Shown piece after piece: positions 1 to 10,439 of a stretch of DNA of 64,000 nt. The notes beneath the pieces were generated by a model. It had not been told where the DNA came from, ran no database searches, and worked only from the letters and a program-made list of their open reading frames with translations. This DNA is from an uncultured Tenacibaculum sp. (GTDB lineage Bacteria > Bacteroidota > Bacteroidia > Flavobacteriales > Flavobacteriaceae). The stretch is from NCBI GenBank assembly GCA_947496185.1, contig CANMCD010000009.1:88115-152114 (forward strand), in the 5' to 3' direction. Within the stretch, counting starts at the first letter, position 1. Every line of letters begins with the position of its first letter. Both the position numbers and the translations under genes were made by a program.

Positions 1-3000
1 CCTATGACATTATCAATTTGTGGGTGTACATTGTCTCGTTCAAAAACCGTTAATACAATACCAAAGTGATTTTCACCTCCCCAAGCGGACAACACTTCAG
101 AGAAAAGGGTTAGCAATGCTGCTGAAGGCGTTAATTGTTGTTGGGTTGCCTCCTTAACAAACGCTGACCAAATTTCTTGAGTAAGCAGTTGTTCTTTTCT
201 CCCAAACCCACTAAAAACATGATTTCTACTAATATCAACAGGTAACTTGGGTGCTTCAGGAAGTGTTTCTATTCGAGCTGTCCAATAGGTTTTATCTATT
301 TGATACCTATTCCCCTCTTTTCTTCTTTCTAGGTAACTTACATAGTCTCTAAAAGAAACTGTTATCGGAGCTAAGCTTTGGCCTTGGTATATTTTGTATA
401 AATCTTTCCAAAAAATATTAATACTTAAAGCATCTGAACTGATAAAATCCAATCCAAAATGAATCATCCAATTATTGGGTGCCATTTCCGTTAACCTCAA
501 CTCAAATGATGGTGTACCGTATGCTGGAGTTCTCACCGCCATGACATTTTTTATATCAGCTATATGCTTCGTTATATTTTTAATTTGAGAATAGGTATAA
601 ACTTCTGGGGTGTATTTTAAGACGGGGAGAATTTGCTGTTTTCCGTCTCTATGATTGACGGAGCGAAGCATTTCGTGTCGTATTATTAGTTGATTCAATG
701 CGGCTGTAAATTTTGCTACATCTAGGTTTCCTGCTAAAATTTCCATATAACCATAACAGGTAAATCCTCCCCAAGCTATTTCAGGATTTTTACCTACGAA
801 ATAGGCATTTTGTACTTCTGTAAAATTGAATTTTTCGTGTCTGTTTTTTTCATCTATCACAAATGCAATCGCATCTTCTACCTCATCTCTTTCATTGCTT
901 TTTATTTTTTCAAGAATAATTTCTGCCCAAGCAGCAATCGTTGGTTTTTTAAAAAATAAGACTGGTTTTAATGAAAGGCTAAGTGCTGCTCTCCATTTCT
1001 TCAATAGTCTGGTGACTGCAATAGAATCTATTCCTAAGACCAACAAACTTTCGTCATTACGTAACTCTTCTTCTTCAAACCCGAATCTCCTCAAAAGCGT
1101 CTGTCTTATAAAAATAATAACCTCTTCTTTGGTTTTCAGTTGGTGAATTGAGGATACTAGGTTGTTTTCTTGTGCTTCAAAAGATGTTTCTTGCTCTCTA
1201 ATGGCGTTTTGAATAACCGCCATTATTCGGGGCAAATGTTTTCTTTCTGCTGCTGATAGACTGTTTTGATCTATAAAACGTTCTAGGTTTTGAAAATCTA
1301 TACCTGTTAACGTACTAGTGCTCTCTTTATCTTCTTTAACACGTATATTCTTTTCATTAAACTTATAATTTGGAACAAATACTTTGGTAAAATTTGCTTT
1401 GTTATAGTACTGCTTCCAATCGATATCGACTCCAAAACCGTCCAAATAAAATACACTTTTTTCGATTTGTTTCGAAGTTGTTTCTTCTTTACTATTAATA
1501 AACTGAACGTCTATTTTTTCTCCTAAAATGTTTTCTATCTTTTCCGTAAGTGCTCCTGTTGATCCCATTTCAAGAAATATGTAATCTTGAGGATTTTTGA
1601 TCGATTGTATGATTTTCATAAATCGAGTTTGTCCTAAATTTAACACCTCCCAATAACGAGCGGAAGCAACTTCTGTTCTCCCTATTGCTCCCGTGACGTT
1701 GGATATAAACCGTCCTTTTGGTGCCGAATATGTAAATGCTTTTGATATCGCTTCAAATGTTCTTCCTTGGCTACTTATTAGTCTTATCGCATGTTCTAAA
1801 CTCATTACATTATCCAAACATCCAGCAACATATTCTCCTATACCATGCCCCATAAAGTAAGTGGGTTCTATACCGTAATGCATCGATGTTTTTGCTAATG
1901 CGTATGCTACTGCAAAAGATGCCACTTGTATGGATTGGGTTTCGTGTAATTGATCGTTATTGGAAAATATATAGGGAATGAAGTCCTCTCCTGTAATTTT
2001 TTGATAATGCGTATTACACAGGATTATATTCTTTTTAAATATTTCATTTTCTTTATAAAACGTCTTACACACATAAGGGCACTTCGACCCCTCATTACCA
2101 AATAAAAATATTATTTTTTTATGCTTTGAAATAATCGTGTCATCAATGTTTGTATTTTCTTTCAAAGCAAGTGCTAAGTTTCTCAAAAGCTCTTTACGGT
2201 CCTTTGCCCAAATAACAACTCTTGACTTTTGCTGTACTCTGGATATGTTTTGGCTATAGGATAGGTCTTTCATAGAGACCGTTGCTTGTTGTTCAATATA
2301 AATCTTAAAACAAGCTATTTGATTTTTTAATGCCGATGAGTTGACTGCCGAGAATCTGAATGGCCATTTTTTTTCAACATCGGTCGTTACTTCTTTTGCT
2401 GTTTCTTTTATAAGGCTTTTGTATTCTTGTAAAACAATATGGGCATTGGTTCCTGATAAACCAAATGAACTTACTGCTGCAATTCTATTTCCTTTTTCTT
2501 TCTGCCATGTTATATTTTTTTGAGCGACTTTTATAGGAATATTTTGCCAGTTAATATGCGTAGATGGTTTTTCAAAATTTACATTGCCTGGGATGGTTTT
2601 ATTCGTTAGTGCTAATACTGTTTTTATCACTCCCGCAACCCCTGACGCTGCTTCTAGATTTCCTATAGCAGATTTTATGGCACCTAAATATAATGGAGCC
2701 TTTCTCTGTTTGCCTACAACATTGGTCAAGGCGCTAACTTCTATCGGATCGCCAATTTGGGTTCCTGTTCCATTTGTTTCCATAAAATCGATATCTGTCG
2801 ATTTTATTTTACTACGTTCCCATACTTGATGTATCAGTTTTTCCTGTGAAGGACCATGTGGTGCTGTAAGCCCTGCACTTAATCCGTCTTGATTTACACC
2901 ACTTGCACTAATTATTGCATGAATCTTATCTCCGTCTTTTTCTGCCGCTGATAATCTTTTTAAAATTACCACACCACATCCTTCCCCTCTTACAGTTCCG

Positions 3001-3794
3001 TTTGAAGCTGCATCAAAACTTCGTAGCTCACAATTTGGTGACAAGATATCTAAGGAAGCCATTAGCTCAGTGGTCTTTGGTGATAACATTAGATTTACCC
3101 CTCCTGCCAAAGCCATGTCACAGTCTCCTATTAGCAAGCCCTTACATGCCTGATCAATGGCTACGAGTGACGAAGAACAAGCAGTGTCTAGGGTAATACC
3201 TGGGCCTTGAAATCCAAAAAAATAAGATACTCTCCCCGATAAAAACGAAGCACTTCCTCCCATCAGGTCATTTGGATTCTTTGATTTGTGCTCTTTGCCT
3301 GAAAAAAGTTTTAGTGTGTGATCAAAAGATGATATCCCCGCATATACTCCCGTTTTAGAACCTTTTAGTGCGTCAGGAGCATATCCTGCATTTTCAATCG
3401 CCTCCCATGACACCTTTAAAAACAACCTTTGTTGTGGATCAATTCGTGCTGCTTCCGATGGTGTCAATCTAAAAAGCTGATGGTCAAAAGCCTCTATATC
3501 TTCTTTTAAAAAACCTGCCTTTTGTAAATATGGATTATTTTCAATTTTTTCTCTAGGGTAGTCTGTCCAACGATCTTCAGGAACAGAAGAAATCATATTT
3601 TTTTGATCAACAATTGCTTGCCAGTATTCTTCCGGACTTGTAATACCTCCTGGTAAATGACATGCCATCCCAACTATAGCAATAGGCTCTAAATCTACGT
3701 GGGTATGTTTTTTGCTTACTTCCTTTTTAAGCTTTCTTATTTCAAGAAGTGCCTCTTTAAGAATTAATTCTTTACTTGTAATATTGGATGTCAT
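1..3794 (-). CDS. Hybrid PKS/NRPS, 3' part outside window: KS(non-canonical)-AT(degenerate)-ACP-heterocyclization (Cy) domain
   Basis: Hand translation from ATG at 3794 (MTSNITSKELILKEALLEIRKLK...EPIAIVGMACHLPG); spot-checked frame is open and absent from the ORF track because it leaves the window. KS motifs DPQQRL, GPGITLDTACSSS, ETNGTGT, GNLEAASG, SSFGLSGTNAH; AT remnant GHGIGE; ACP LGIDS (Ser 1023-1025); Cy motifs FTEVQNAYFVGK, RHEML, DFISSDALS (423-449), LPEAPKLP, TPSAALLTLFSEVLSAW. Confidence 0.93.
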   Translation of the reverse strand, partial: MTSNITSKELILKEALLEIRKLKKEVSKKHTHVDLEPIAIVGMACHLPGGITSPEEYWQAIVDQKNMISSVPEDRWTDYPREKIENNPYLQKAGFLKEDIEAFDHQLFRLTPSEAARIDPQQRLFLKVSWEAIENAGYAPDALKGSKTGVYAGISSFDHTLKLFSGKEHKSKNPNDLMGGSASFLSGRVSYFFGFQGPGITLDTACSSSLVAIDQACKGLLIGDCDMALAGGVNLMLSPKTTELMASLDILSPNCELRSFDAASNGTVRGEGCGVVILKRLSAAEKDGDKIHAIISASGVNQDGLSAGLTAPHGPSQEKLIHQVWERSKIKSTDIDFMETNGTGTQIGDPIEVSALTNVVGKQRKAPLYLGAIKSAIGNLEAASGVAGVIKTVLALTNKTIPGNVNFEKPSTHINWQNIPIKVAQKNITWQKEKGNRIAAVSSFGLSGTNAHIVLQEYKSLIKETAKEVTTDVEKKWPFRFSAVNSSALKNQIACFKIYIEQQATVSMKDLSYSQNISRVQQKSRVVIWAKDRKELLRNLALALKENTNIDDTIISKHKKIIFLFGNEGSKCPYVCKTFYKENEIFKKNIILCNTHYQKITGEDFIPYIFSNNDQLHETQSIQVASFAVAYALAKTSMHYGIEPTYFMGHGIGEYVAGCLDNVMSLEHAIRLISSQGRTFEAISKAFTYSAPKGRFISNVTGAIGRTEVASARYWEVLNLGQTRFMKIIQSIKNPQDYIFLEMGSTGALTEKIENILGEKIDVQFINSKEETTSKQIEKSVFYLDGFGVDIDWKQYYNKANFTKVFVPNYKFNEKNIRVKEDKESTSTLTGIDFQNLERFIDQNSLSAAERKHLPRIMAVIQNAIREQETSFEAQENNLVSSIHQLKTKEEVIIFIRQTLLRRFGFEEEELRNDESLLVLGIDSIAVTRLLKKWRAALSLSLKPVLFFKKPTIAAWAEIILEKIKSNERDEVEDAIAFVIDEKNRHEKFNFTEVQNAYFVGKNPEIAWGGFTCYGYMEILAGNLDVAKFTAALNQLIIRHEMLRSVNHRDGKQQILPVLKYTPEVYTYSQIKNITKHIADIKNVMAVRTPAYGTPSFELRLTEMAPNNWMIHFGLDFISSDALSINIFWKDLYKIYQGQSLAPITVSFRDYVSYLERRKEGNRYQIDKTYWTARIETLPEAPKLPVDISRNHVFSGFGRKEQLLTQEIWSAFVKEATQQQLTPSAALLTLFSEVLSAWGGENHFGIVLTVFERDNVHPQIDNVI

Positions 3795-3797
3795 TTT

Positions 3798-5966
3798 TTA
3801 ATTCTTTAGTTCATTGTACAAGAGTGATAATAATTCATCTTCTGATAAGTGGTCTATATTTTCTTCTTCCCTATCAGTACTTCCTTCCTCTGAAAAAATT
3901 GTCGTTGCCGCTATTTCTTCATTTTCTTTTTTCCACAAATAGTTTGTTAGATTCGTGATCGTATTATAATTGTATATATCCGTTGTCTGAACGGGTTGGG
4001 TTAATACCTCATCTAGTCCATCTCTTATATATAATGACATCATAGAATTAATTCCCATTTCTATAAAAGGTCTATTTATAGCTATACTTTCTTCTGAAAT
4101 CCCTAACTGATTTGCAAATAATGCTAGGATATATGCTCTTAAATCATTTTTGGATTTTATATTCTCAACTATATTCTCGAGGTTATTTTTTCGCTGATAA
4201 ATTGAAAGTACTTTGCGCAATTGGTCTTGTTCATACAGTAACCGAGCTTTCGTCCGTTGTATCTTTCCACTGGTTGTTCGTGGCACATGCATCGGTGGTA
4301 CAAAAACTATTGTATCTACAATTATTTCATGATTTTTAATGACCGCTTCGATTATGTCCTCCTTCCATTTTTCAAATTGAGGTGTACGAAGTGCCGCTCG
4401 TGTTAGCTCTTGAATGATTACTAATTTCTCTTGGTTGTTTTTTGTGACAGAAAATGCAGCAGTACCGTCTGTTCTCAGCTCATTTGAACTGGTAAAAACA
4501 GTTCTTTCAATGTCTTGGGGATAATGATTTAACCCTTTAATTATTATAACATCTTTGATACGTCCCGTTACGTATATATTCCCTTCTTCATCTAAAAAAC
4601 CTATGTCTCCTGTTTTAAGATGTATACTATTGTTTTGAGGTTCTTTAATGTAATATGTATTGGTTATTTTTTCTTTTCGATAATATCCTTTGGTTAAGGA
4701 AGGACCACTAAACCATAATTCTCCTATTTGGAATGGTGAAAGGATATTACTGTCTTTATCTCGAATACTAAGATTATGTTCTTCAATAAGGGTTCCATTA
4801 CTCACAAAAAATATAGCTGACGGGTCATTTTCAAAAATCTTAGTAGAGAATGGATCTATGACTCCCTGATCTTTTATTGCTATTTTATTATTTTGTAGTT
4901 GTTCTTTATCTAGTTTTACCCATTTTACATTATTACCATCATTATTCGAACTAACTACCAAAGTTGCCTCTGCAAGCCCATAACCGGGACACACAACGCC
5001 CTTTTTCATGTCAAAATCTTTGGCTACTCCGTTAAAACGTTGAATGGTTTTTATATGTACTGGTTCTGCCCCACAAATAAGCATTTTTAACGATGTAAGT
5101 GAAATTTGACTTTTCGCTTCTTTCGTTTTAAGTGCCGTTAATTTGGAAGCAACAAGTTCAATAGAAAAATTTGGCCCACCTGTATGGGTTCCTTTATAAA
5201 TTGTAATTGCTTTTAACCAAAGTAACGGCTCATTCATAAAGTCTGCTGGACTGATCAACACCGTGGTATACCCCGAAAATATTCCCTGAAGAATACCTAA
5301 AATCAACCCCATATCGTGGTAAAATGGAAGCCAAGAAACCATAACACTTTGCTCATTAAATTCAAATTTTTGTTTAAATGCTTTTAAATTATGATATAGT
5401 GAATCTTGAGCGACTATTACTCCTTTAGGGTTTCCCGTTGAACCAGAAGTATATTGTAAAAAAGAAATTTCATGAGGTGTATGTATTGGGATCTCCGTTG
5501 GTGCAAGGTTTTCTCCTACACCAACGAATAACTTTCTTGATACTTTTGGGGAATTGGAAAATATTCTTGCTAAATTTTCTAAAAAATCACTATTCGTTAT
5601 TATGGCTTTTACCTCAGCATCTTCGGCTATTTTTTCCCATTTATCAATTGGCTTATTTCTTGCTGGTTTGTTTAGTGGAACTGGTACGGCTCCAATCCAA
5701 TTACAGGCAAGAAATGAGACTAAAAACTCTAATCCTTGTGAAAAAATGAGCATACAGACGTCTCCGTGCTTTATCCCTGATTTAGACAATTGACCTGCAC
5801 ATCTTTTTACATTTTGCAACAGTTCATGAAACGTCAATTCTTTAGTTGATAAATCTGAGCTAAGCATACGAAAAGCTACTGCATTTGGGACTATTTCTGA
5901 TTTCTGAATCAACGATATAACCATCGTACTCGATTCAATGTCAAGCCTATCTGTCATAATGTTCAT
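3798..5966 (-). CDS. Fatty acyl-AMP ligase (FAAL) fused to an ACP
   Basis: FLQYTSGSTGNPKG, SWLPFYHDMGLI, PGYGLAEATL, FAAL-type insertion before VSNG, LKTGDIGF, GRIKDVII, PRTTSGKIQR; C-terminal carrier domain MGINSM; stop 3 bp before PKS start. Confidence 0.92.
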   Translation of the reverse strand: MNIMTDRLDIESSTMVISLIQKSEIVPNAVAFRMLSSDLSTKELTFHELLQNVKRCAGQLSKSGIKHGDVCMLIFSQGLEFLVSFLACNWIGAVPVPLNKPARNKPIDKWEKIAEDAEVKAIITNSDFLENLARIFSNSPKVSRKLFVGVGENLAPTEIPIHTPHEISFLQYTSGSTGNPKGVIVAQDSLYHNLKAFKQKFEFNEQSVMVSWLPFYHDMGLILGILQGIFSGYTTVLISPADFMNEPLLWLKAITIYKGTHTGGPNFSIELVASKLTALKTKEAKSQISLTSLKMLICGAEPVHIKTIQRFNGVAKDFDMKKGVVCPGYGLAEATLVVSSNNDGNNVKWVKLDKEQLQNNKIAIKDQGVIDPFSTKIFENDPSAIFFVSNGTLIEEHNLSIRDKDSNILSPFQIGELWFSGPSLTKGYYRKEKITNTYYIKEPQNNSIHLKTGDIGFLDEEGNIYVTGRIKDVIIIKGLNHYPQDIERTVFTSSNELRTDGTAAFSVTKNNQEKLVIIQELTRAALRTPQFEKWKEDIIEAVIKNHEIIVDTIVFVPPMHVPRTTSGKIQRTKARLLYEQDQLRKVLSIYQRKNNLENIVENIKSKNDLRAYILALFANQLGISEESIAINRPFIEMGINSMMSLYIRDGLDEVLTQPVQTTDIYNYNTITNLTNYLWKKENEEIAATTIFSEEGSTDREEENIDHLSEDELLSLLYNELKN

Positions 5967-6235
5967 TTTTACTCTTTTTATTTCCTCTTAAAACAAACAA
6001 TACAAACCACAATTATTGAAGGGGTCAATATCAAATCAATATTTACGTAAAGGATAAAACCCCTTTATTTGTAAATACAAATTCGTCTAGGTTAAAAAAT
6101 TCGATACACAATTAATATTTGTGTAAAGCTGAAAGTTAATTATGCTCTCTTCTATATTGAAAACATTGTTTTAACACACATTCTTAGTTTTTTTATTCTT
6201 GGGGTTTATTGTTTTCTAATTGTTATACAACCTAT

Positions 6236-7123
6236 TTAAACTACTTCTACCAAACCTTTACCAGTAAGTAAATGAAAATAAACGTCTTCTAATGAAGGTT
6301 TTTTAGCTACAAACCCTCCGCTAGGTTCGTATTCCGCATATACTGTAGCGATCATTTTTCCTAAATGAAATCTGCTGGAAATAAGGTTATGTGTTTGTTT
6401 ATAGGTTTTCAAATCGTTCTTATCAATTTCTTTTTCCCATAACTTCCCATCTAGCGATGCTTCTAATACAGATGGATTCCCTTCTAAAAGGACTTTTCCT
6501 CCTCCTATGATAGCCATTTGATTACACAGCGTACTTACATCTTCCACAATATGAGTAGATAGTATCACAACTCTATTTTCTCCTATTTCAGACAGTAAAT
6601 TATAAAACCTATTTCTTTCTGCAGGGTCTAATCCTGCTGTAGGTTCATCCACAATTATTAATTGCGGTTGCCCTAATAAAGCCTGCGCAATTCCGAAACG
6701 TTGTTTCATTCCTCCTGAATAGCTATCCAACCTCTTTTTACGAACATCATACAAATTGACCATATGTAATAATCCTTCAATTTGTTCTTTTCGTTCTCTT
6801 TTGTTGATGATCCCTTTTAAATCAGCAATATGATCTAACAATTCAACTGCAGAAACATTCGGGTATACCCCAAATTCTTGTGGCAAGTACCCTAAAACTT
6901 TTCGTAACTCTTCTGGTTTTTCAGATATGTTAATTCCATTAAAGTGAACGGTTCCATTATCTGCATCTTGTAATGTTGCAATGGTTCTCATTAAAGAACT
7001 TTTACCTGCACCGTTCTGCCCTAAAAGTCCAAACATTCCTTTACCAATGGTTAGGTCTATTCCTTGCAGTGCTTTCACACCGTTTTTATAGGTTTTAGAG
7101 AGGTTTTTTATTTCGAGTTTCAT
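6236..7123 (-). CDS. ABC transporter ATP-binding protein
   Basis: Walker A GQNGAGKS, signature YSGGMKQR, Walker B IIVDEPT. Confidence 0.95.
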   Translation of the reverse strand: MKLEIKNLSKTYKNGVKALQGIDLTIGKGMFGLLGQNGAGKSSLMRTIATLQDADNGTVHFNGINISEKPEELRKVLGYLPQEFGVYPNVSAVELLDHIADLKGIINKRERKEQIEGLLHMVNLYDVRKKRLDSYSGGMKQRFGIAQALLGQPQLIIVDEPTAGLDPAERNRFYNLLSEIGENRVVILSTHIVEDVSTLCNQMAIIGGGKVLLEGNPSVLEASLDGKLWEKEIDKNDLKTYKQTHNLISSRFHLGKMIATVYAEYEPSGGFVAKKPSLEDVYFHLLTGKGLVEVV

Positions 7124-7158
7124 TGTTTGGTTCTTACGTGTGTTATTAATTGTTATGT

Positions 7159-10100
7159 TTATCTGACTACTTTTTCAAAACCATTTTTTATCGCTATAAT
7201 ATCTTTTTGTTTTAGTTTCTTGAAAGCTGGGGTATTTTTGATAGTATTATAGAGGTCTACAAAACAGGCTTGCTTGTATTCTCTATTTTTCACCCAGTTC
7301 AAAACGATCGCATTAAACGTTTTGAACCCTAACTTTTTACTTAGATTATATAATTGAGCTACTCCTTTATTTTTCTCTAAGTAGTCCATACCATCTGCTG
7401 CAATCAAAGCAGGTTCTATATTTGGCTCATTACCACTATCTCTATGATAAACTCCTTGCTTTTTTATGAGTAGGTTCTCTACAACTTGCTCTCCGTGTAA
7501 TTTATCTACCACTTGTAATGACAAACATGCAGGAAGTGCATATCGTAGCATATCTGCTCCTTGAACATTGGCAATATTTAGCTCTTCTACCACCCAATGT
7601 GTCATCATTTGTGAAGCAGCACAAAAAGATATGTATCCTTTATTATTTTCTGATTTTGTATCTGCAAACCATCCTTCTTTTTCGGATATAGCAATCGTAT
7701 TAGGAAAAGAATAAAGCGGTTTTTGATAATGTGGAATCTCAACAATTCTCATTTCAGTGTAAGGGTACTGCTCAAACGCGTCAAGTACAAAGTCGTATGT
7801 TTTTTTGATGGTTTCCTTATAGAGTTCTATATTGAACTTATGTTTCTCATGATGCAAGACATTAATGTCTATCCCTTTATAACGCTCACTATTTTTACCA
7901 TAAATAGCAGAACCGAAATACCAATTAAAAGGGGAATCATTCTCAAGCTGGTATTGATAAAAGTTTCTATTGCCTTCTTTCCATACTTTCATTTGTTTTC
8001 CTGGACCAAAAGCAAATTGGTTTTCTGAAGTACTAATCGTAATATTTCCTTTAAATCTTTCTGCATCTGGAGCAAAAATGTCTTGACTTACGGCATTTTT
8101 ATCATCAACTTTCTCCATTCTAGAAACCAATTTCAAAAGTTCCCAATCTCCACGATAGCGATTTTCTTTTAGCTCTCTATCTTTCTGATAACCTACGGTT
8201 GGTAGTAGATCTCTAACAAATAAAAACGATCCATTATAGGTTATCTGAGGCTGTTGTGTAAACTTATCTTGTGTAAATCCTTTATGAGCTCTTGCGCCTA
8301 TGATTTCTAACACACCTTGTTCACAAGTTTTTATTGACAATGGTATCGCCAAAATATCCAATTCTAAATCATGCCATACTGGTTTTATTTCTTTACCCTC
8401 CCATTTAATAGATGAGTAAGTTGTAAAATCAGGAAGATTTAGATACACCTCTTCTATATTTTTATCTTTAGATACGTTTTGTAAAGCTAAGTTTGCTTTA
8501 AATTTTACGGTTCTTTCTTCTGGATAAAAATCTACACCCACCCCTGCATTGGTAATCTTTGGTTGTAGTACTTTACTTAACTCTTTGTATTTTTTTTCGT
8601 AGGCTGCACACTTCTTTTGTCCTTCTAAATTACTTTCAAAATTGTCAAGATTATTTACATTGGATACAATAAATGATTGTAGCAATAAAAAAACAATGGC
8701 CAACCCTGCAACTATTCCTCTACCTGTCCAGTTGAGCTGTACTCCTTTACACGTTAATTTTTCTTTTAGTTTAAAATCAGCACCTCTTTTCCAGAAATAA
8801 ACCCCTATAAAAACAAAGATTATTGCCAAAATCGTCCATAACAACCAAAACCAAGGGATTGAAGTCTCCCAAATACCGTAGCCATTCATTTCTGAATAGT
8901 CATCTACTCCTGGTACATACATATATATAAAACGTAACTGTTCTATAATCTCAAGCTCGTAACTTATCATGTTAAAAAAGAAGAACCATATTGATAAAAT
9001 ATGCGTTGCAAATCTGTTTGCTGTAATACCTGCAAATAAGACCACGATAGCAATCATTTGAAGATAGTTTAACCAGCCCCATTTATATCCAAATACATCG
9101 GAAATATAAAGTGATAAATTGATCTCATTAGCTGCCCCTAGTAGCATTTGTGCTACGATTCCAAAAACCATAAACATGGCTGACAAAACAAAAGCTACCA
9201 TGCCCATTGCAAAAACTTTGGGCAATACTACCAACCAAGCAGGTATCGGTAAAGCATCTTTTACCTGCCAAATCTTAAATAACCGATCTTTGAATAACAA
9301 TTCTGCAGTCCATATCATTAAAATAATCGTCAACCAAGTACCTGCAGTTATTCGGGTATTGGTCATAATAGATGTTAGGGCGTGACTTGATCCAATGTAA
9401 AAGGATTCATTCCATAATAAATTTCTAAGTATAAAAACAATACTCAGTATTAATATTAAAATTTTAAATCCACGGGTTCTCACAACATTTTTGAACTCCA
9501 ATAAAGTTAATCGGAATAACTTATTGCAATAATCTACAAACCGTGTACTAATTCTTGGTGAACTAATTCGAATTTCTTTACCCTTTGTAAGCCCCGATGG
9601 TATTGCTATTTCATTGTCTTTCTTTTTACCAGAAACTGGTACTATAAATTGTTTAAAGGTAAACCGTCTAAATGCTACTAATAAATAGACAAATGATACC
9701 CCAATCCATATCGCTCTATTTATCCAAAAGGGCATATCTAAAGGGATGTATGTATAATTTTTGGCTGCAGCTGGTAATGCATCTAAAGCAATCACTGTAT
9801 AAACAAAAGATGAGGGGTCTAATAATTGAAGGATTTCAAGGTTGGAAGAAGTAGGGCGAACCGTCTCGCAAACAAAGAAAATAAGTGTAATAAAAAACGT
9901 ACTCAGATAGCTTGCTCCTATTCTTTTAAACATCACCAAAGATGCTATTGCAAATGCCGTATAAATAAAAAGGTTGGTCGCTGTAAAAACAAAAAAACCG
10001 TGAAACATTTGTCCCCAAGGCATCACCCCAAACTTATCTGCTGCCCCTATTCCTACGTAAGGAGTTACCATTAAGCCGACAAATATTCCGAATCCTAAAA

Positions 10101-10437
10101 GTAGGTTAACAACATAGGCTGCTAAAAACTTCCCTACGAAGAATTTTTTATCATTCTTTGCTGCAGGGTATATGATACTTCCCATTTTATATTGTATATC
10201 TCTATACAAGGAAGTTCCTGTCACCAAAGCTATTACAATAGTCAATACAATACCGCCTCCTGCAAAGCTTCTGTAAAACAATGCTGCTCCATTCATTTGG
10301 GTAGCATCATTAATATACACTTCATATGCCCCTTGTATAAACCATACCGCCTGAAACATCATTAAGGCAAAAAAGAAATAAAACAGCGGTTGTTTTAATC
10401 TATTGAGTATCTCAAATTTTACGATCCTTCCTATCAT
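7159..10437 (-). CDS. ABC-2 type permease fused to an M1-aminopeptidase-like domain (metal ligands degenerate)
   Basis: Two multi-TM blocks followed by a soluble domain with family-like segments YPYTEMRIVEIPHY, SFPNTIAISE, QGADML, YLEKNKG; HExxH region reads SQMMTHW. Confidence 0.8.
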   Translation of the reverse strand: MIGRIVKFEILNRLKQPLFYFFFALMMFQAVWFIQGAYEVYINDATQMNGAALFYRSFAGGGIVLTIVIALVTGTSLYRDIQYKMGSIIYPAAKNDKKFFVGKFLAAYVVNLLLGFGIFVGLMVTPYVGIGAADKFGVMPWGQMFHGFFVFTATNLFIYTAFAIASLVMFKRIGASYLSTFFITLIFFVCETVRPTSSNLEILQLLDPSSFVYTVIALDALPAAAKNYTYIPLDMPFWINRAIWIGVSFVYLLVAFRRFTFKQFIVPVSGKKKDNEIAIPSGLTKGKEIRISSPRISTRFVDYCNKLFRLTLLEFKNVVRTRGFKILILILSIVFILRNLLWNESFYIGSSHALTSIMTNTRITAGTWLTIILMIWTAELLFKDRLFKIWQVKDALPIPAWLVVLPKVFAMGMVAFVLSAMFMVFGIVAQMLLGAANEINLSLYISDVFGYKWGWLNYLQMIAIVVLFAGITANRFATHILSIWFFFFNMISYELEIIEQLRFIYMYVPGVDDYSEMNGYGIWETSIPWFWLLWTILAIIFVFIGVYFWKRGADFKLKEKLTCKGVQLNWTGRGIVAGLAIVFLLLQSFIVSNVNNLDNFESNLEGQKKCAAYEKKYKELSKVLQPKITNAGVGVDFYPEERTVKFKANLALQNVSKDKNIEEVYLNLPDFTTYSSIKWEGKEIKPVWHDLELDILAIPLSIKTCEQGVLEIIGARAHKGFTQDKFTQQPQITYNGSFLFVRDLLPTVGYQKDRELKENRYRGDWELLKLVSRMEKVDDKNAVSQDIFAPDAERFKGNITISTSENQFAFGPGKQMKVWKEGNRNFYQYQLENDSPFNWYFGSAIYGKNSERYKGIDINVLHHEKHKFNIELYKETIKKTYDFVLDAFEQYPYTEMRIVEIPHYQKPLYSFPNTIAISEKEGWFADTKSENNKGYISFCAASQMMTHWVVEELNIANVQGADMLRYALPACLSLQVVDKLHGEQVVENLLIKKQGVYHRDSGNEPNIEPALIAADGMDYLEKNKGVAQLYNLSKKLGFKTFNAIVLNWVKNREYKQACFVDLYNTIKNTPAFKKLKQKDIIAIKNGFEKVVR

Positions 10438-10439
10438 TT

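What the first reader, a model, noticed from the sequence alone, without database searches (positions are those of the whole stretch)
1650..3700. PKS module with a Cys-Asn-Asn ketosynthase and a gutted acyltransferase: a non-elongating relay module
Seen: KS keeps its Cys (DTACSSS, 3177-3179) but both catalytic His positions are Asn (ETNGTGT 2772-2774; KSAIGNLEAASG 2658-2660). The AT has GHGIGE instead of GHSxG (1842-1844) and only ~63 codons between this motif and the YW motif, so most of the small subdomain appears deleted. The ACP Ser (GIDS) is intact and the frame is open. Established: elongating type I KSs use Cys-His-His; KS0 domains lacking the HGTGT His act as transacylases/gatekeepers. 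Inference: the module passes, and may length-select, the FAAL-loaded acyl chain to the Cy domain without extending it. Two parallel His->Asn changes with no stop codons argue for selection rather than decay.
Basis: partly seen in the sequence, partly recalled or inferred. Interest (0 to 1): 0.75.

Follow-up and report, generated by a model that had tools for sequence, protein, structure and literature searches.

The report
Switched-off PKS module kept as acyl relay
One polyketide-extending module in a Flavobacteriaceae lipopeptide (probably siderophore) gene cluster has lost every residue needed to add two carbons but is otherwise well preserved, so it most likely only passes the fatty acyl chain on; a cyanobacterial pathway already shows this arrangement, so it is a good example rather than a new mechanism.

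Summary
The KS reads Cys206-Asn341-Asn379. The AT has GHGIGE (Ser to Gly) and has also lost the malonyl-binding Arg (Gln676), the GQGSQ loop, and 84 residues covering the whole small subdomain and the catalytic His. The ACP Ser is intact, and the gene is one open 2558-aa frame: KS-AT-ACP-Cy-A-T-Cy.

This is not a family trait. All 33 KS-bearing homologues, including the syntenic closest orthologue (56% identity), keep C-H-H, and 32 of 33 keep GHSxG. No closer relative exists in 267 same-genus genomes, 400 same-family genomes or the metagenome collections.

The two domains have fared differently. The AT remnant is decayed: 19 of 55 retained conserved columns are changed. The KS is the best-conserved domain: 71% identity, and 10 of 157 conserved columns changed, two of them the His. 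That rate matches the working NRPS domains.

Relatives of the cluster show the module intact, AT-less, or deleted outright with the FAAL fused to the module's ACP.

Best reading: a non-elongating KS0-AT0-ACP module (about 0.9) that relays the FAAL-loaded acyl chain through Cys206 to the ACP feeding the Cy domain (about 0.6). The same logic is published for ClyE (PMC7923214). New member of a known kind; moderate interest.

The parts
3798..5966 (-). FAAL-ACP loading protein (722 aa). Carrier Ser641 is at 4044-4046. The C-terminal docking tail SEDELLSLLYNELKN is at 3801-3845.
   Evidence: Pfam AMP-binding 199.8 bits, AMP-dom_DIP2-like and PP-binding. 55% identical to the orthologue's FAAL-ACP, with the docking tail conserved (SEEDLLILLSNELKEQK).
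3..3794 (-). First 1264 codons of the 2558-aa hybrid PKS-NRPS gene (KS-AT-ACP-Cy-A-T-TubC_N dock-Cy). It continues beyond the window start to G000:C9:84232.
   Evidence: Single open frame. Pfam domain order.
3705..3794 (-). N-terminal coiled-coil docking helix of the KS (aa 1-30).
   Evidence: AF2 helix at residues 3-29. Sequence conserved with the orthologue and with AT-less relatives.
2385..3689 (-). KS domain (aa 36-470) with triad Cys206 (3177-3179), Asn341 (2772-2774) and Asn379 (2658-2660). Lys374, the GDPIE motif and the FGLSGTNAH motif are retained.
   Evidence: Pfam ketoacyl-synt 280 bits plus Ketoacyl-synt_C 116 bits, equal to the intact orthologue. 71% identity to the orthologue. 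10/157 conserved columns changed. C-N-N is unique among 438 KS domains.
2100..2384 (-). KS-AT linker (aa 471-565).
   Evidence: Pfam KAsynt_C_assoc and CurL-like_PKS_C. AF2 pLDDT mostly 76-90.
1485..2099 (-). AT remnant (aa 566-770). Changes: GQGSQ->GNEGSK, Ser->Gly651 (1842-1844), Arg->Gln676 (1767-1769), and an 84-residue in-frame deletion at the 1760/1761 junction (between aa 678 and 679) that removes the small subdomain and the catalytic His.
   Evidence: Pfam Acyl_transf_1 matches only profile 15-122/319. Alignment. 31/67 conserved columns deviate. Terminal branch 3.6 times that of the sister. AF2 still folds it as a compact domain, pLDDT about 78-93 across the junction.
1125..1484 (-). 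Post-AT linker (aa 771-890).
   Evidence: Alignment with the orthologue, conserved VPNYxF motif.
900..1124 (-). Module ACP (aa 891-965), with phosphopantetheine Ser924 at 1023-1025.
   Evidence: Pfam PP-binding. 1/9 conserved columns changed. Homologous to the only carrier kept in the module-less relative P0130.
3..842 (-). Start of heterocyclisation domain Cy1 (aa 985 onward). The DFISSDALS (DxxxxD) motif is at 423-449.
   Evidence: Pfam Condensation. Motif position.

Best explanation
The module is a lineage-specific, non-elongating KS0-AT0-ACP module inside an otherwise working assembly line that is primed by a FAAL and resembles the pyochelin/yersiniabactin type. The assembly line reads FAAL-ACP | KS-AT-ACP-Cy-A-T-Cy | TE II | A-MT-T | saccharopine-DH-like | Irp3-like thiazolinyl imine reductase | Glyoxalase_3 | Cy-A-MT-T-TE. 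ABC and MATE exporters and a TonB-dependent receptor lie next to it.

Shown from sequence: the AT cannot load malonate, because Ser, Arg, His and the small subdomain are gone. The KS lacks both histidines needed for decarboxylative condensation, so no C2 unit is added.

Inferred: the fatty acyl chain activated by the FAAL and held on its own ACP docks on the KS through the conserved docking pair. It is then taken onto Cys206 and passed by thioester exchange to the module ACP (Ser924). That ACP is the donor carrier for Cy1, which condenses the chain with cysteine to give a 2-alkyl-thiazoline. The AT remnant survives only as a structural part of the KS-AT scaffold.

The product should lack the C2 (beta-keto) unit that the orthologous cluster with the intact module would add. 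It should resemble the product of the related cluster in which the module has been deleted.
For: 1. Catalytic residues are as stated. All 33 homologues keep C-H-H and 32 of 33 keep GHSxG, so these are losses.

2. His of HGTGT to Ala leaves about 1% activity in DEBS KS1, and loss of that His defines KS0 domains (PMC7327777).

3. The AT is old wreckage and the KS is not. The AT remnant has 19/55 retained conserved columns changed, against 10/157 in the KS (Fisher p=1.3e-6). The KS rate equals that of the NRPS domains (28/387, p=0.85). Both His being among the 10 KS changes has chance probability 0.004. The KS has the highest identity (71%) and the lowest dN (0.217) of all domains. Its Pfam scores equal those of the intact orthologue.

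4. The rest of the line is intact. Cy1, A, T and Cy2 deviate from conserved columns no more than the orthologue does. All cluster genes are open and 45-66% identical to their syntenic counterparts.

5. Cys206, ACP Ser924, FAAL-ACP Ser641, the FAAL-ACP C-terminal tail and the KS N-terminal helix are all conserved.

6. The Bacteroidota MAG cluster around P0130 has the same gene order but no KS-AT. Its FAAL is fused to a carrier that is homologous to the module ACP (39/95 identical to ours, 49/97 to P0125) and not to the FAAL's own ACP (16/64). So the downstream NRPS accepts an unextended acyl chain, and the module ACP is the carrier that Cy1 needs.

7. Published precedent: ClyE is a KS0-AT0-(DH)-ACP between the FAAL/ACP pair ClyA/B and the NRPS ClyF. 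The products are dodecanoyl-lactates with no C2 extension (PMC7923214).
Against: No biochemical or expression evidence exists for this locus. No close relative carrying the same changes was found, so purifying selection on the KS after the His losses cannot be measured. dS against the only orthologue is saturated. The KS terminal branch is 2.3 times that of the sister, although Cy2 shows 2.6 times. This fits a mild relaxation or a general lineage effect. High KS conservation could also mean that the His losses are recent, or that the KS is kept only as a dimerisation scaffold. A double His replacement is not typical of known KS0 domains, which keep the second His. Whether a C-N-N site still supports efficient thioester exchange is untested. 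The cluster occurs in none of 267 other genomes of the genus, so its function in this organism is not backed by conservation.
Confidence: 0.6

Rival explanations
1. Bypass or skipped module. The KS-AT is catalytically irrelevant and is kept only as a structural or dimerisation scaffold, and to keep the reading frame for the downstream NRPS. The acyl chain reaches Cy1 because the FAAL loads the module ACP directly in trans, or because the FAAL's own ACP serves Cy1 directly.
For: In P0130 the FAAL loads the module-type ACP directly, in cis. KS0 domains are said to have structural roles (PMC7327777). Losing the second His as well is what one expects if the active site no longer matters. The KS branch is 2.3 times the sister's.
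Against: The FAAL keeps its own ACP with Ser641 and its docking tail, and the KS keeps its matching N-terminal helix and Cys206. Apart from the two His, 147 of the 157 conserved KS columns are unchanged, including the other KS active-site motifs (Lys374, GDPIE, FGLSGTNAH). That is more than a scaffold role is likely to need.
Confidence: 0.25
2. The whole cluster is a decaying, non-functional acquisition. The C-N-N triad and the gutted AT are simply the first visible lesions.
For: The cluster is unique in the genus (0 orthologues in 267 genomes) and appears laterally acquired. The lesions are strain- or lineage-specific.
Against: The AT has accumulated heavy change (35% of retained conserved columns plus an 84-aa deletion). 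Over the same time the 2558-aa, 1840-aa and 1131-aa ORFs stayed open in a 34% GC genome, and the NRPS domains stayed as conserved as in the orthologue. Damage is confined to the elongation-specific residues.
Confidence: 0.08
3. The module still elongates. Malonyl would be supplied to the ACP by a trans-acting AT (as must happen in the AT-less relatives), and the C-N-N site would retain condensation activity.
For: AT-less relatives with a stand-alone KS followed by ACP-Cy exist in the same family and must use a trans AT. FabH/CHS-type condensing enzymes use Cys-His-Asn (own knowledge).
Against: Those AT-less KSs all keep C-H-H. This site has no His at all. A single His to Ala change at the HGTGT position cuts DEBS KS1 to about 1% activity (PMC7327777).
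Confidence: 0.04

Closest known systems
ClyE of the chlorosphaerolactylate pathway (Sphaerospermopsis sp. LEGE 00249; PMC7923214)
   Same: It is a cis-AT-derived PKS module with a KS lacking an active-site His (KS0) and an AT lacking the active-site Ser (AT0) but with a working ACP. It sits between a FAAL-loaded ACP and an NRPS condensation step. The proposal is that it passes the fatty acyl chain on without extension. Its authors also read it as evolutionary degradation of a PKS.
   Different: ClyE is a separate protein that feeds a normal C domain of a depsipeptide synthetase. Here the module is fused to a Cy-A-T-Cy NRPS and feeds a heterocyclisation domain. Here both His are Asn, and the AT has also lost Arg, His and its whole small subdomain. 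The phylum differs (Bacteroidota against Cyanobacteria). ClyE was not fetched or aligned here, so the comparison rests on the paper's text.
KS0 (non-elongating ketosynthase) domains of trans-AT PKSs, including KS0-ACP pairs at PKS-to-NRPS junctions
   Same: The Cys is retained and the HGTGT His is replaced. These domains transfer acyl chains between carriers without condensation (PMC7327777; PMC5764310; references in PMC7923214).
   Different: Those domains form old, conserved clades in AT-less systems and normally keep the second His: 6 of 6 KS0-type domains seen here do. This one is a recent derivative of an elongating cis-AT KS, still carries an AT remnant, and has lost both His.
Its own orthologue P0020 (Logan SRR18245248 contig, L011) and 32 further FAAL / KS-AT-ACP-Cy-A-T-(Ox)-Cy synthetases (Aquimarina, Sporomusa, Pelosinus, Clostridium, Paenibacillus and others)
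   Same: Same domain order and the same flanking genes (FAAL-ACP, TE II, A-MT-T, saccharopine-DH-like, Irp3-like). Overall identity is 56%, and 71% in the KS.
   Different: All keep C-H-H, and 32 of 33 keep a full AT with GHSxG, so they should add one malonyl unit. P0020 also has an Ox domain that is absent here.
P0130 cluster (Bacteroidota MAG GCA_038746525.1, L014)
   Same: Same cluster gene order. Cy-A-T is 56% identical. The predicted chemistry is the same: an unextended fatty acyl chain handed to Cy1.
   Different: It reached this by deleting the FAAL's ACP together with the KS and AT, and fusing the FAAL to the module ACP. The window's gene reached it by point inactivation plus a partial AT deletion.

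Membership tests
Elongating cis-AT type I PKS module | KS catalytic triad Cys-His-His | tested here: not met
   The triad is Cys206-Asn341-Asn379. All 33 homologues have C-H-H.
Elongating cis-AT type I PKS module | AT with the GHSxG Ser, the malonyl-binding Arg, the HAxH His and the small subdomain | tested here: not met
   GHGIGE, Arg->Gln676, and an 84-aa deletion that removes the small subdomain and the His. Pfam matches profile 15-122/319 only.
KS0 (non-elongating ketosynthase) | KS (thiolase) fold with the active-site Cys retained | tested here: met
   Pfam 280 plus 116 bits. The AF2 model (pLDDT 80) matches KS-AT didomains such as CurL 4MZ0 with TM 0.71. DTACSSS is present.
KS0 (non-elongating ketosynthase) | His of the HGTGT motif replaced | tested here: met
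   ETNGTGT, Asn341. Definition taken from PMC7327777.
KS0 (non-elongating ketosynthase) | Transfers the acyl chain between carrier proteins without condensation | not testable with these tools
   Needs an in vitro acyl-transfer assay or a Cys206Ala mutant.
ClyE-type cryptic KS0-AT0-ACP relay between FAAL-ACP and NRPS | FAAL plus carrier protein directly upstream, with a docking pair to the KS | tested here: met
   The FAAL-ACP gene lies at 3798-5966 and ends 3 bases before the PKS start. The docking tail and the KS N-terminal helix are conserved with the orthologue.
ClyE-type cryptic KS0-AT0-ACP relay between FAAL-ACP and NRPS | KS lacks a catalytic His, AT lacks the catalytic Ser, and the ACP Ser is intact | tested here: met
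   N341 and N379; G651; Ser924 in LGIDS.
ClyE-type cryptic KS0-AT0-ACP relay between FAAL-ACP and NRPS | An NRPS condensation-type domain directly downstream | tested here: met
   Cy1 with DFISSDALS follows the ACP in the same ORF.
ClyE-type cryptic KS0-AT0-ACP relay between FAAL-ACP and NRPS | The product carries the fatty acyl chain without a C2 extension | not testable with these tools
   No metabolite data. Only indirect support comes from the module-less P0130 cluster.
ClyE-type cryptic KS0-AT0-ACP relay between FAAL-ACP and NRPS | Sequence relatedness to ClyE itself | not tested
   The ClyE sequence was not fetched. The resemblance is architectural and comes from the paper.
Pseudogene / decaying gene | Frame disruption, or loss of conservation across the whole gene | tested here: not met
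   2558 codons are open. The KS and NRPS domains are as conserved as in the orthologue, and only the AT is decayed.

The most novel reading that the evidence does not exclude
The Cys-Asn-Asn site is not merely dead but a selected, specialised transacylase site. In this reading the two Asn keep the hydrogen-bonding (oxyanion) geometry for thioester exchange while removing all decarboxylase activity. That would prevent stray extension with malonyl-ACP loaded in trans. The cluster family would then give a natural four-state series (intact module, AT-less KS, KS0-AT0, module deleted with the FAAL fused to the module ACP) showing how cis-AT modules are turned into relays and then lost.
Probability: 0.2. 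Interest if true: 0.5.

Novelty: new member of a known kind. Interest (0 to 1): 0.32.

Why it matters
The finding sharpens product prediction for this cluster. The expected product is a 2-alkyl-thiazoline lipopeptide without the extra C2/beta-keto unit that standard PKS rules, or the orthologue, would predict.

It also offers an unusually clean natural comparison for people who engineer or study the evolution of assembly lines. Within one syntenic cluster family the same FAAL-to-Cy junction exists with an intact KS-AT-ACP, with an AT-less KS, with an inactivated KS0-AT0-ACP, and with the module deleted. In the inactivated form the AT has decayed while the KS fold, the Cys and the docking elements are held. 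This is indirect evidence that the KS still does something useful after it stops condensing.

It is not a new mechanism.

Tried and rejected
Search for closer relatives that would date the changes or allow dN/dS:
- Same genus, 267 genomes: best hit 39% identity, unrelated PKSs.
- Same family, 400 genomes: only a 56% full-length relative and AT-less KSs.
- Genome contigs: nothing closer than 36%.
- Two metagenome-contig scans: nothing.
- The 5.8-billion-protein search: only P0020 lies above 45%.

Pairwise dN/dS against P0020: dS is saturated or undefined, so only dN is usable.

Literature searches for a characterised product of this cluster family, or for a described Cys-Asn-Asn KS, found nothing specific.

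Rejected readings:
- Sequencing or assembly artefact. There are three separate point changes plus a deletion, set in a heavily diverged AT, in one open frame.
- 'C-N-N is a conserved design of this family'.
- 'Chain-length gatekeeper'. No evidence bears on it either way.
Full report
**Anatomy**

The finding lies in the first 1264 codons of a 2558-aa gene on the - strand. The gene starts at window 3794 and continues past the window start, and was recovered from the genome as L004:232-7908:-. Pfam gives the order KS (36-408 plus extension), KS-AT linker, a truncated AT (576-681), ACP (896-959), Cy1 (1020-1404), A (1446-1921), T, an internal TubC_N docking element (2068-2115) and Cy2.

Directly upstream, ending three bases before this gene's start, is a 722-aa FAAL-ACP (window 3798-5966). 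Further upstream lie an ABC ATPase, a 1092-aa permease-like protein, a MATE exporter, DUF4374 and an ORF the size of a TonB-dependent receptor.

Downstream, outside the window, lie a type II thioesterase, an A-MT-T protein, a saccharopine-dehydrogenase-like protein, an Irp3-like thiazolinyl imine reductase, a Glyoxalase_3 protein and a TubC_N-Cy-A-MT-T-TE synthetase.

This is a pyochelin/yersiniabactin-like poly-thiazoline assembly line primed by a fatty acid instead of salicylate, in a 34% GC, 4.0-Mb genome. Relatives and earlier notes point to Flavobacteriaceae.

**Check of the observation**

- Cys206, TGT, 3177-3179
- Asn341, AAT, 2772-2774
- Asn379, AAT, 2658-2660
- Gly651, GGT, 1842-1844
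- ACP Ser924, TCT, 1023-1025

The orthologue reads CAT, CAT and AGC at the three changed codons. The two Asn therefore each arose by one C-to-A change, and Gly arose from Ser by A-to-G.

The AT is more damaged than reported:
- The GQGSQ loop reads GNEGSK.
- The malonyl-binding Arg is Gln676.
- An in-frame gap of 84 residues (orthologue residues 682-765) removes the entire small subdomain together with the HAxH catalytic His.

AlphaFold2 with a 26-row alignment folds residues 1-820 as a KS-AT didomain (mean pLDDT 80, pTM 0.75). Confidence across the deletion junction is 78-93, and the best PDB match is the CurL KS-AT (4MZ0, TM 0.71). The remnant therefore looks like the large AT subdomain with the inserted small subdomain cleanly excised. 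A caveat applies: the alignment consists of intact homologues, which may flatter the model.

**Is it a family trait?**

No. The closest relative, P0020, is 56% identical over 2127 aa. It sits on a Logan contig with the same neighbours: FAAL-ACP, TE II, A-MT-T, saccharopine-DH-like, Irp3-like. It reads ETHGTGT, KTAIGHLEAASG and GHSTGEY and has a full AT.

Of 33 homologues with this architecture, from Aquimarina, Sporomusa, Pelosinus, Clostridium, Paenibacillus, Cohnella and metagenomes, all have C-H-H and 32 have GHSxG.

In a wider sample of 438 KS domains from 162 proteins, C-N-N occurs only here. The six KS0-type domains (CSH, CNH, CQH, CAH) all keep the second His.

No closer relative exists in 267 genomes of the genus, 400 of the family, the GTDB species set or the metagenome collections. 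The state is therefore derived, and is known from this one genome.

**Decay or selection?**

The two domains behave in opposite ways. The table uses columns that are at least 90% conserved among 23 homologues.

| Region | Conserved columns changed | Comparison |
|---|---|---|
| AT, all columns | 31 of 67 | other sequences: median 2 |
| AT, columns it still has | 19 of 55 | against KS: Fisher p=1.3e-6 |
| KS | 10 of 157 | against NRPS: p=0.85 |
| Cy1 + A + T + Cy2 | 28 of 387 | |

Six of the ten KS changes are conservative: L/I, V/I and A/S. The others are G297A and F182A, plus the two catalytic His. Two specified columns both falling among ten hits in 157 has probability 0.004, a post-hoc figure.

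The KS is also the domain most similar to the orthologue (71% identity, dN 0.217, the lowest of all domains). Its Pfam scores equal the orthologue's.

On a fixed tree, the terminal branch of this sequence relative to its sister is 3.6 times for the AT, 2.3 for the KS, 2.6 for Cy2, 1.5 for Cy1 and 1.0 for A. The KS may be slightly relaxed, but no more than a domain that must still work.

The AT has clearly been useless for a long time. The rest of the protein, and all the other cluster genes, stayed intact over that time. The assembly line has therefore evidently gone on operating without elongation, and the KS fold has been kept during that period.

What cannot be shown is that the KS stayed under constraint after its own His losses.

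**What relatives say about mechanism**

A Cy1-A tree places this protein as sister to P0020. In that tree the PKS module is evolutionarily labile.

- P0130, from a Bacteroidota MAG, is sister to the KS-bearing P0125 with 100% bootstrap support. It has the same cluster gene order but no KS-AT at all. Its FAAL is fused to a carrier followed by Cy-A-T-Cy. That carrier is homologous to the module ACP (49/97 identical to P0125's, 39/95 to ours) and not to the FAAL's own ACP (16/64).
- A Flavobacterium/Chryseobacterium clade, and one further genome of the family, have a stand-alone KS with the AT fully excised but C-H-H intact, followed by ACP-Cy.

Two inferences follow. First, the downstream NRPS in this family can accept an unextended fatty acyl chain. 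Second, the module ACP is the carrier that Cy1 uses.

In the window's protein the FAAL still has its own ACP (Ser641) and its C-terminal docking tail (SEDELLSLLYNELKN, against SEEDLLILLSNELKEQK in the orthologue). The KS keeps the matching N-terminal helix and Cys206, and the module ACP keeps Ser924. The simplest route is FAAL, then the FAAL's ACP, then KS Cys206, then the module ACP, then Cy1. That is a KS0-type relay.

**Known biochemistry**

Loss of the HGTGT His defines non-elongating KS0 domains. H346A in DEBS KS1 leaves about 1% activity (PMC7327777). KS0 domains transfer acyl chains between carriers (references cited in PMC7923214).

The same arrangement has already been described. ClyE of the chlorosphaerolactylate pathway is a KS0-AT0-(DH)-ACP protein between the FAAL/ACP pair ClyA/B and the NRPS ClyF. 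Its authors read it as a degraded PKS that only passes the dodecanoyl chain on, and the products contain no C2 extension (PMC7923214). A KS0 is also drawn in the FAAL-primed, Cy-containing cyanochelin B synthetase (PMC12628792).

**Verdict**

'Non-elongating' is well supported, at about 0.9. 'Relay through the KS cysteine' is the best reading, at about 0.6. Rivals are bypass with the KS kept only as scaffold (about 0.25), a dead cluster (about 0.08) and continued elongation (about 0.04). Chain-length selection has no support.

The feature is a lineage-specific new member of a known kind, the KS0-AT0 relay module. Its unusual details are the replacement of both His by Asn and the clean excision of the AT small subdomain. 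A useful family-wide series of module states surrounds it.

Noticed in passing
L014 (GCA_038746525.1 contig JBCDKO010000051.1) 2153-9640: A natural FAAL-ACP-Cy-A-T-Cy fusion (P0130) in a syntenic cluster. Its carrier is homologous to the PKS-module ACP and not to the FAAL's own ACP. This implies one deletion that removed the FAAL's ACP together with the KS and AT.
   Followed up: partly
L016 8045-9952 (Flavobacterium sp. Fl-318, GCA_033845065.1) and L026 1273-3162: Stand-alone 629-635-aa KS proteins with C-H-H intact. The AT has been excised cleanly, so the KS-AT linker joins directly to the post-AT linker. They are followed by an ACP-Cy-A-Ox-T-Cy NRPS. This is a cis-AT module converted to trans-AT style. 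In L016 the upstream genes encode a FAAL-ACAD-ACP and a KS-DH-KR-ACP.
   Followed up: partly
P0193 (2972 aa, Logan): Another homologue whose AT reads GHGAGE (Ser to Gly) while its KS keeps C-H-H. This is a possible independent AT inactivation.
   Followed up: no
L004 (aa 2068-2115 of the 2558-aa protein; outside the window): A TubC_N-type docking domain lies inside the polypeptide, between the T domain and Cy2. It is conserved across the family. The closest orthologue P0020 has a nitroreductase-type Ox domain just before it, which is absent here, so thiazoline rather than thiazole is expected.
   Followed up: no
window 7159-10437 (-): A 1092-aa ORF between the ABC ATPase and the MATE exporter has no Pfam hit at E<=1e-4.
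   Followed up: no
G000:C8:17602-19560 and G000:C10:37908-39893: The same genome carries two further giant PKS reading frames, of 6584 aa and 6083 aa. The second has one in-frame TAA. Similar frames with one TAA occur in other genomes of the genus. The TAA may simply be a boundary between two in-frame genes.
   Followed up: no
window 1-16000 and G000:C9 about 71300-104000: The whole cluster (about 30 kb) has no orthologue in 267 other genomes of the genus, although its GC (about 34-35%) matches the host. It was probably acquired laterally from another low-GC Bacteroidota.
   Followed up: partly
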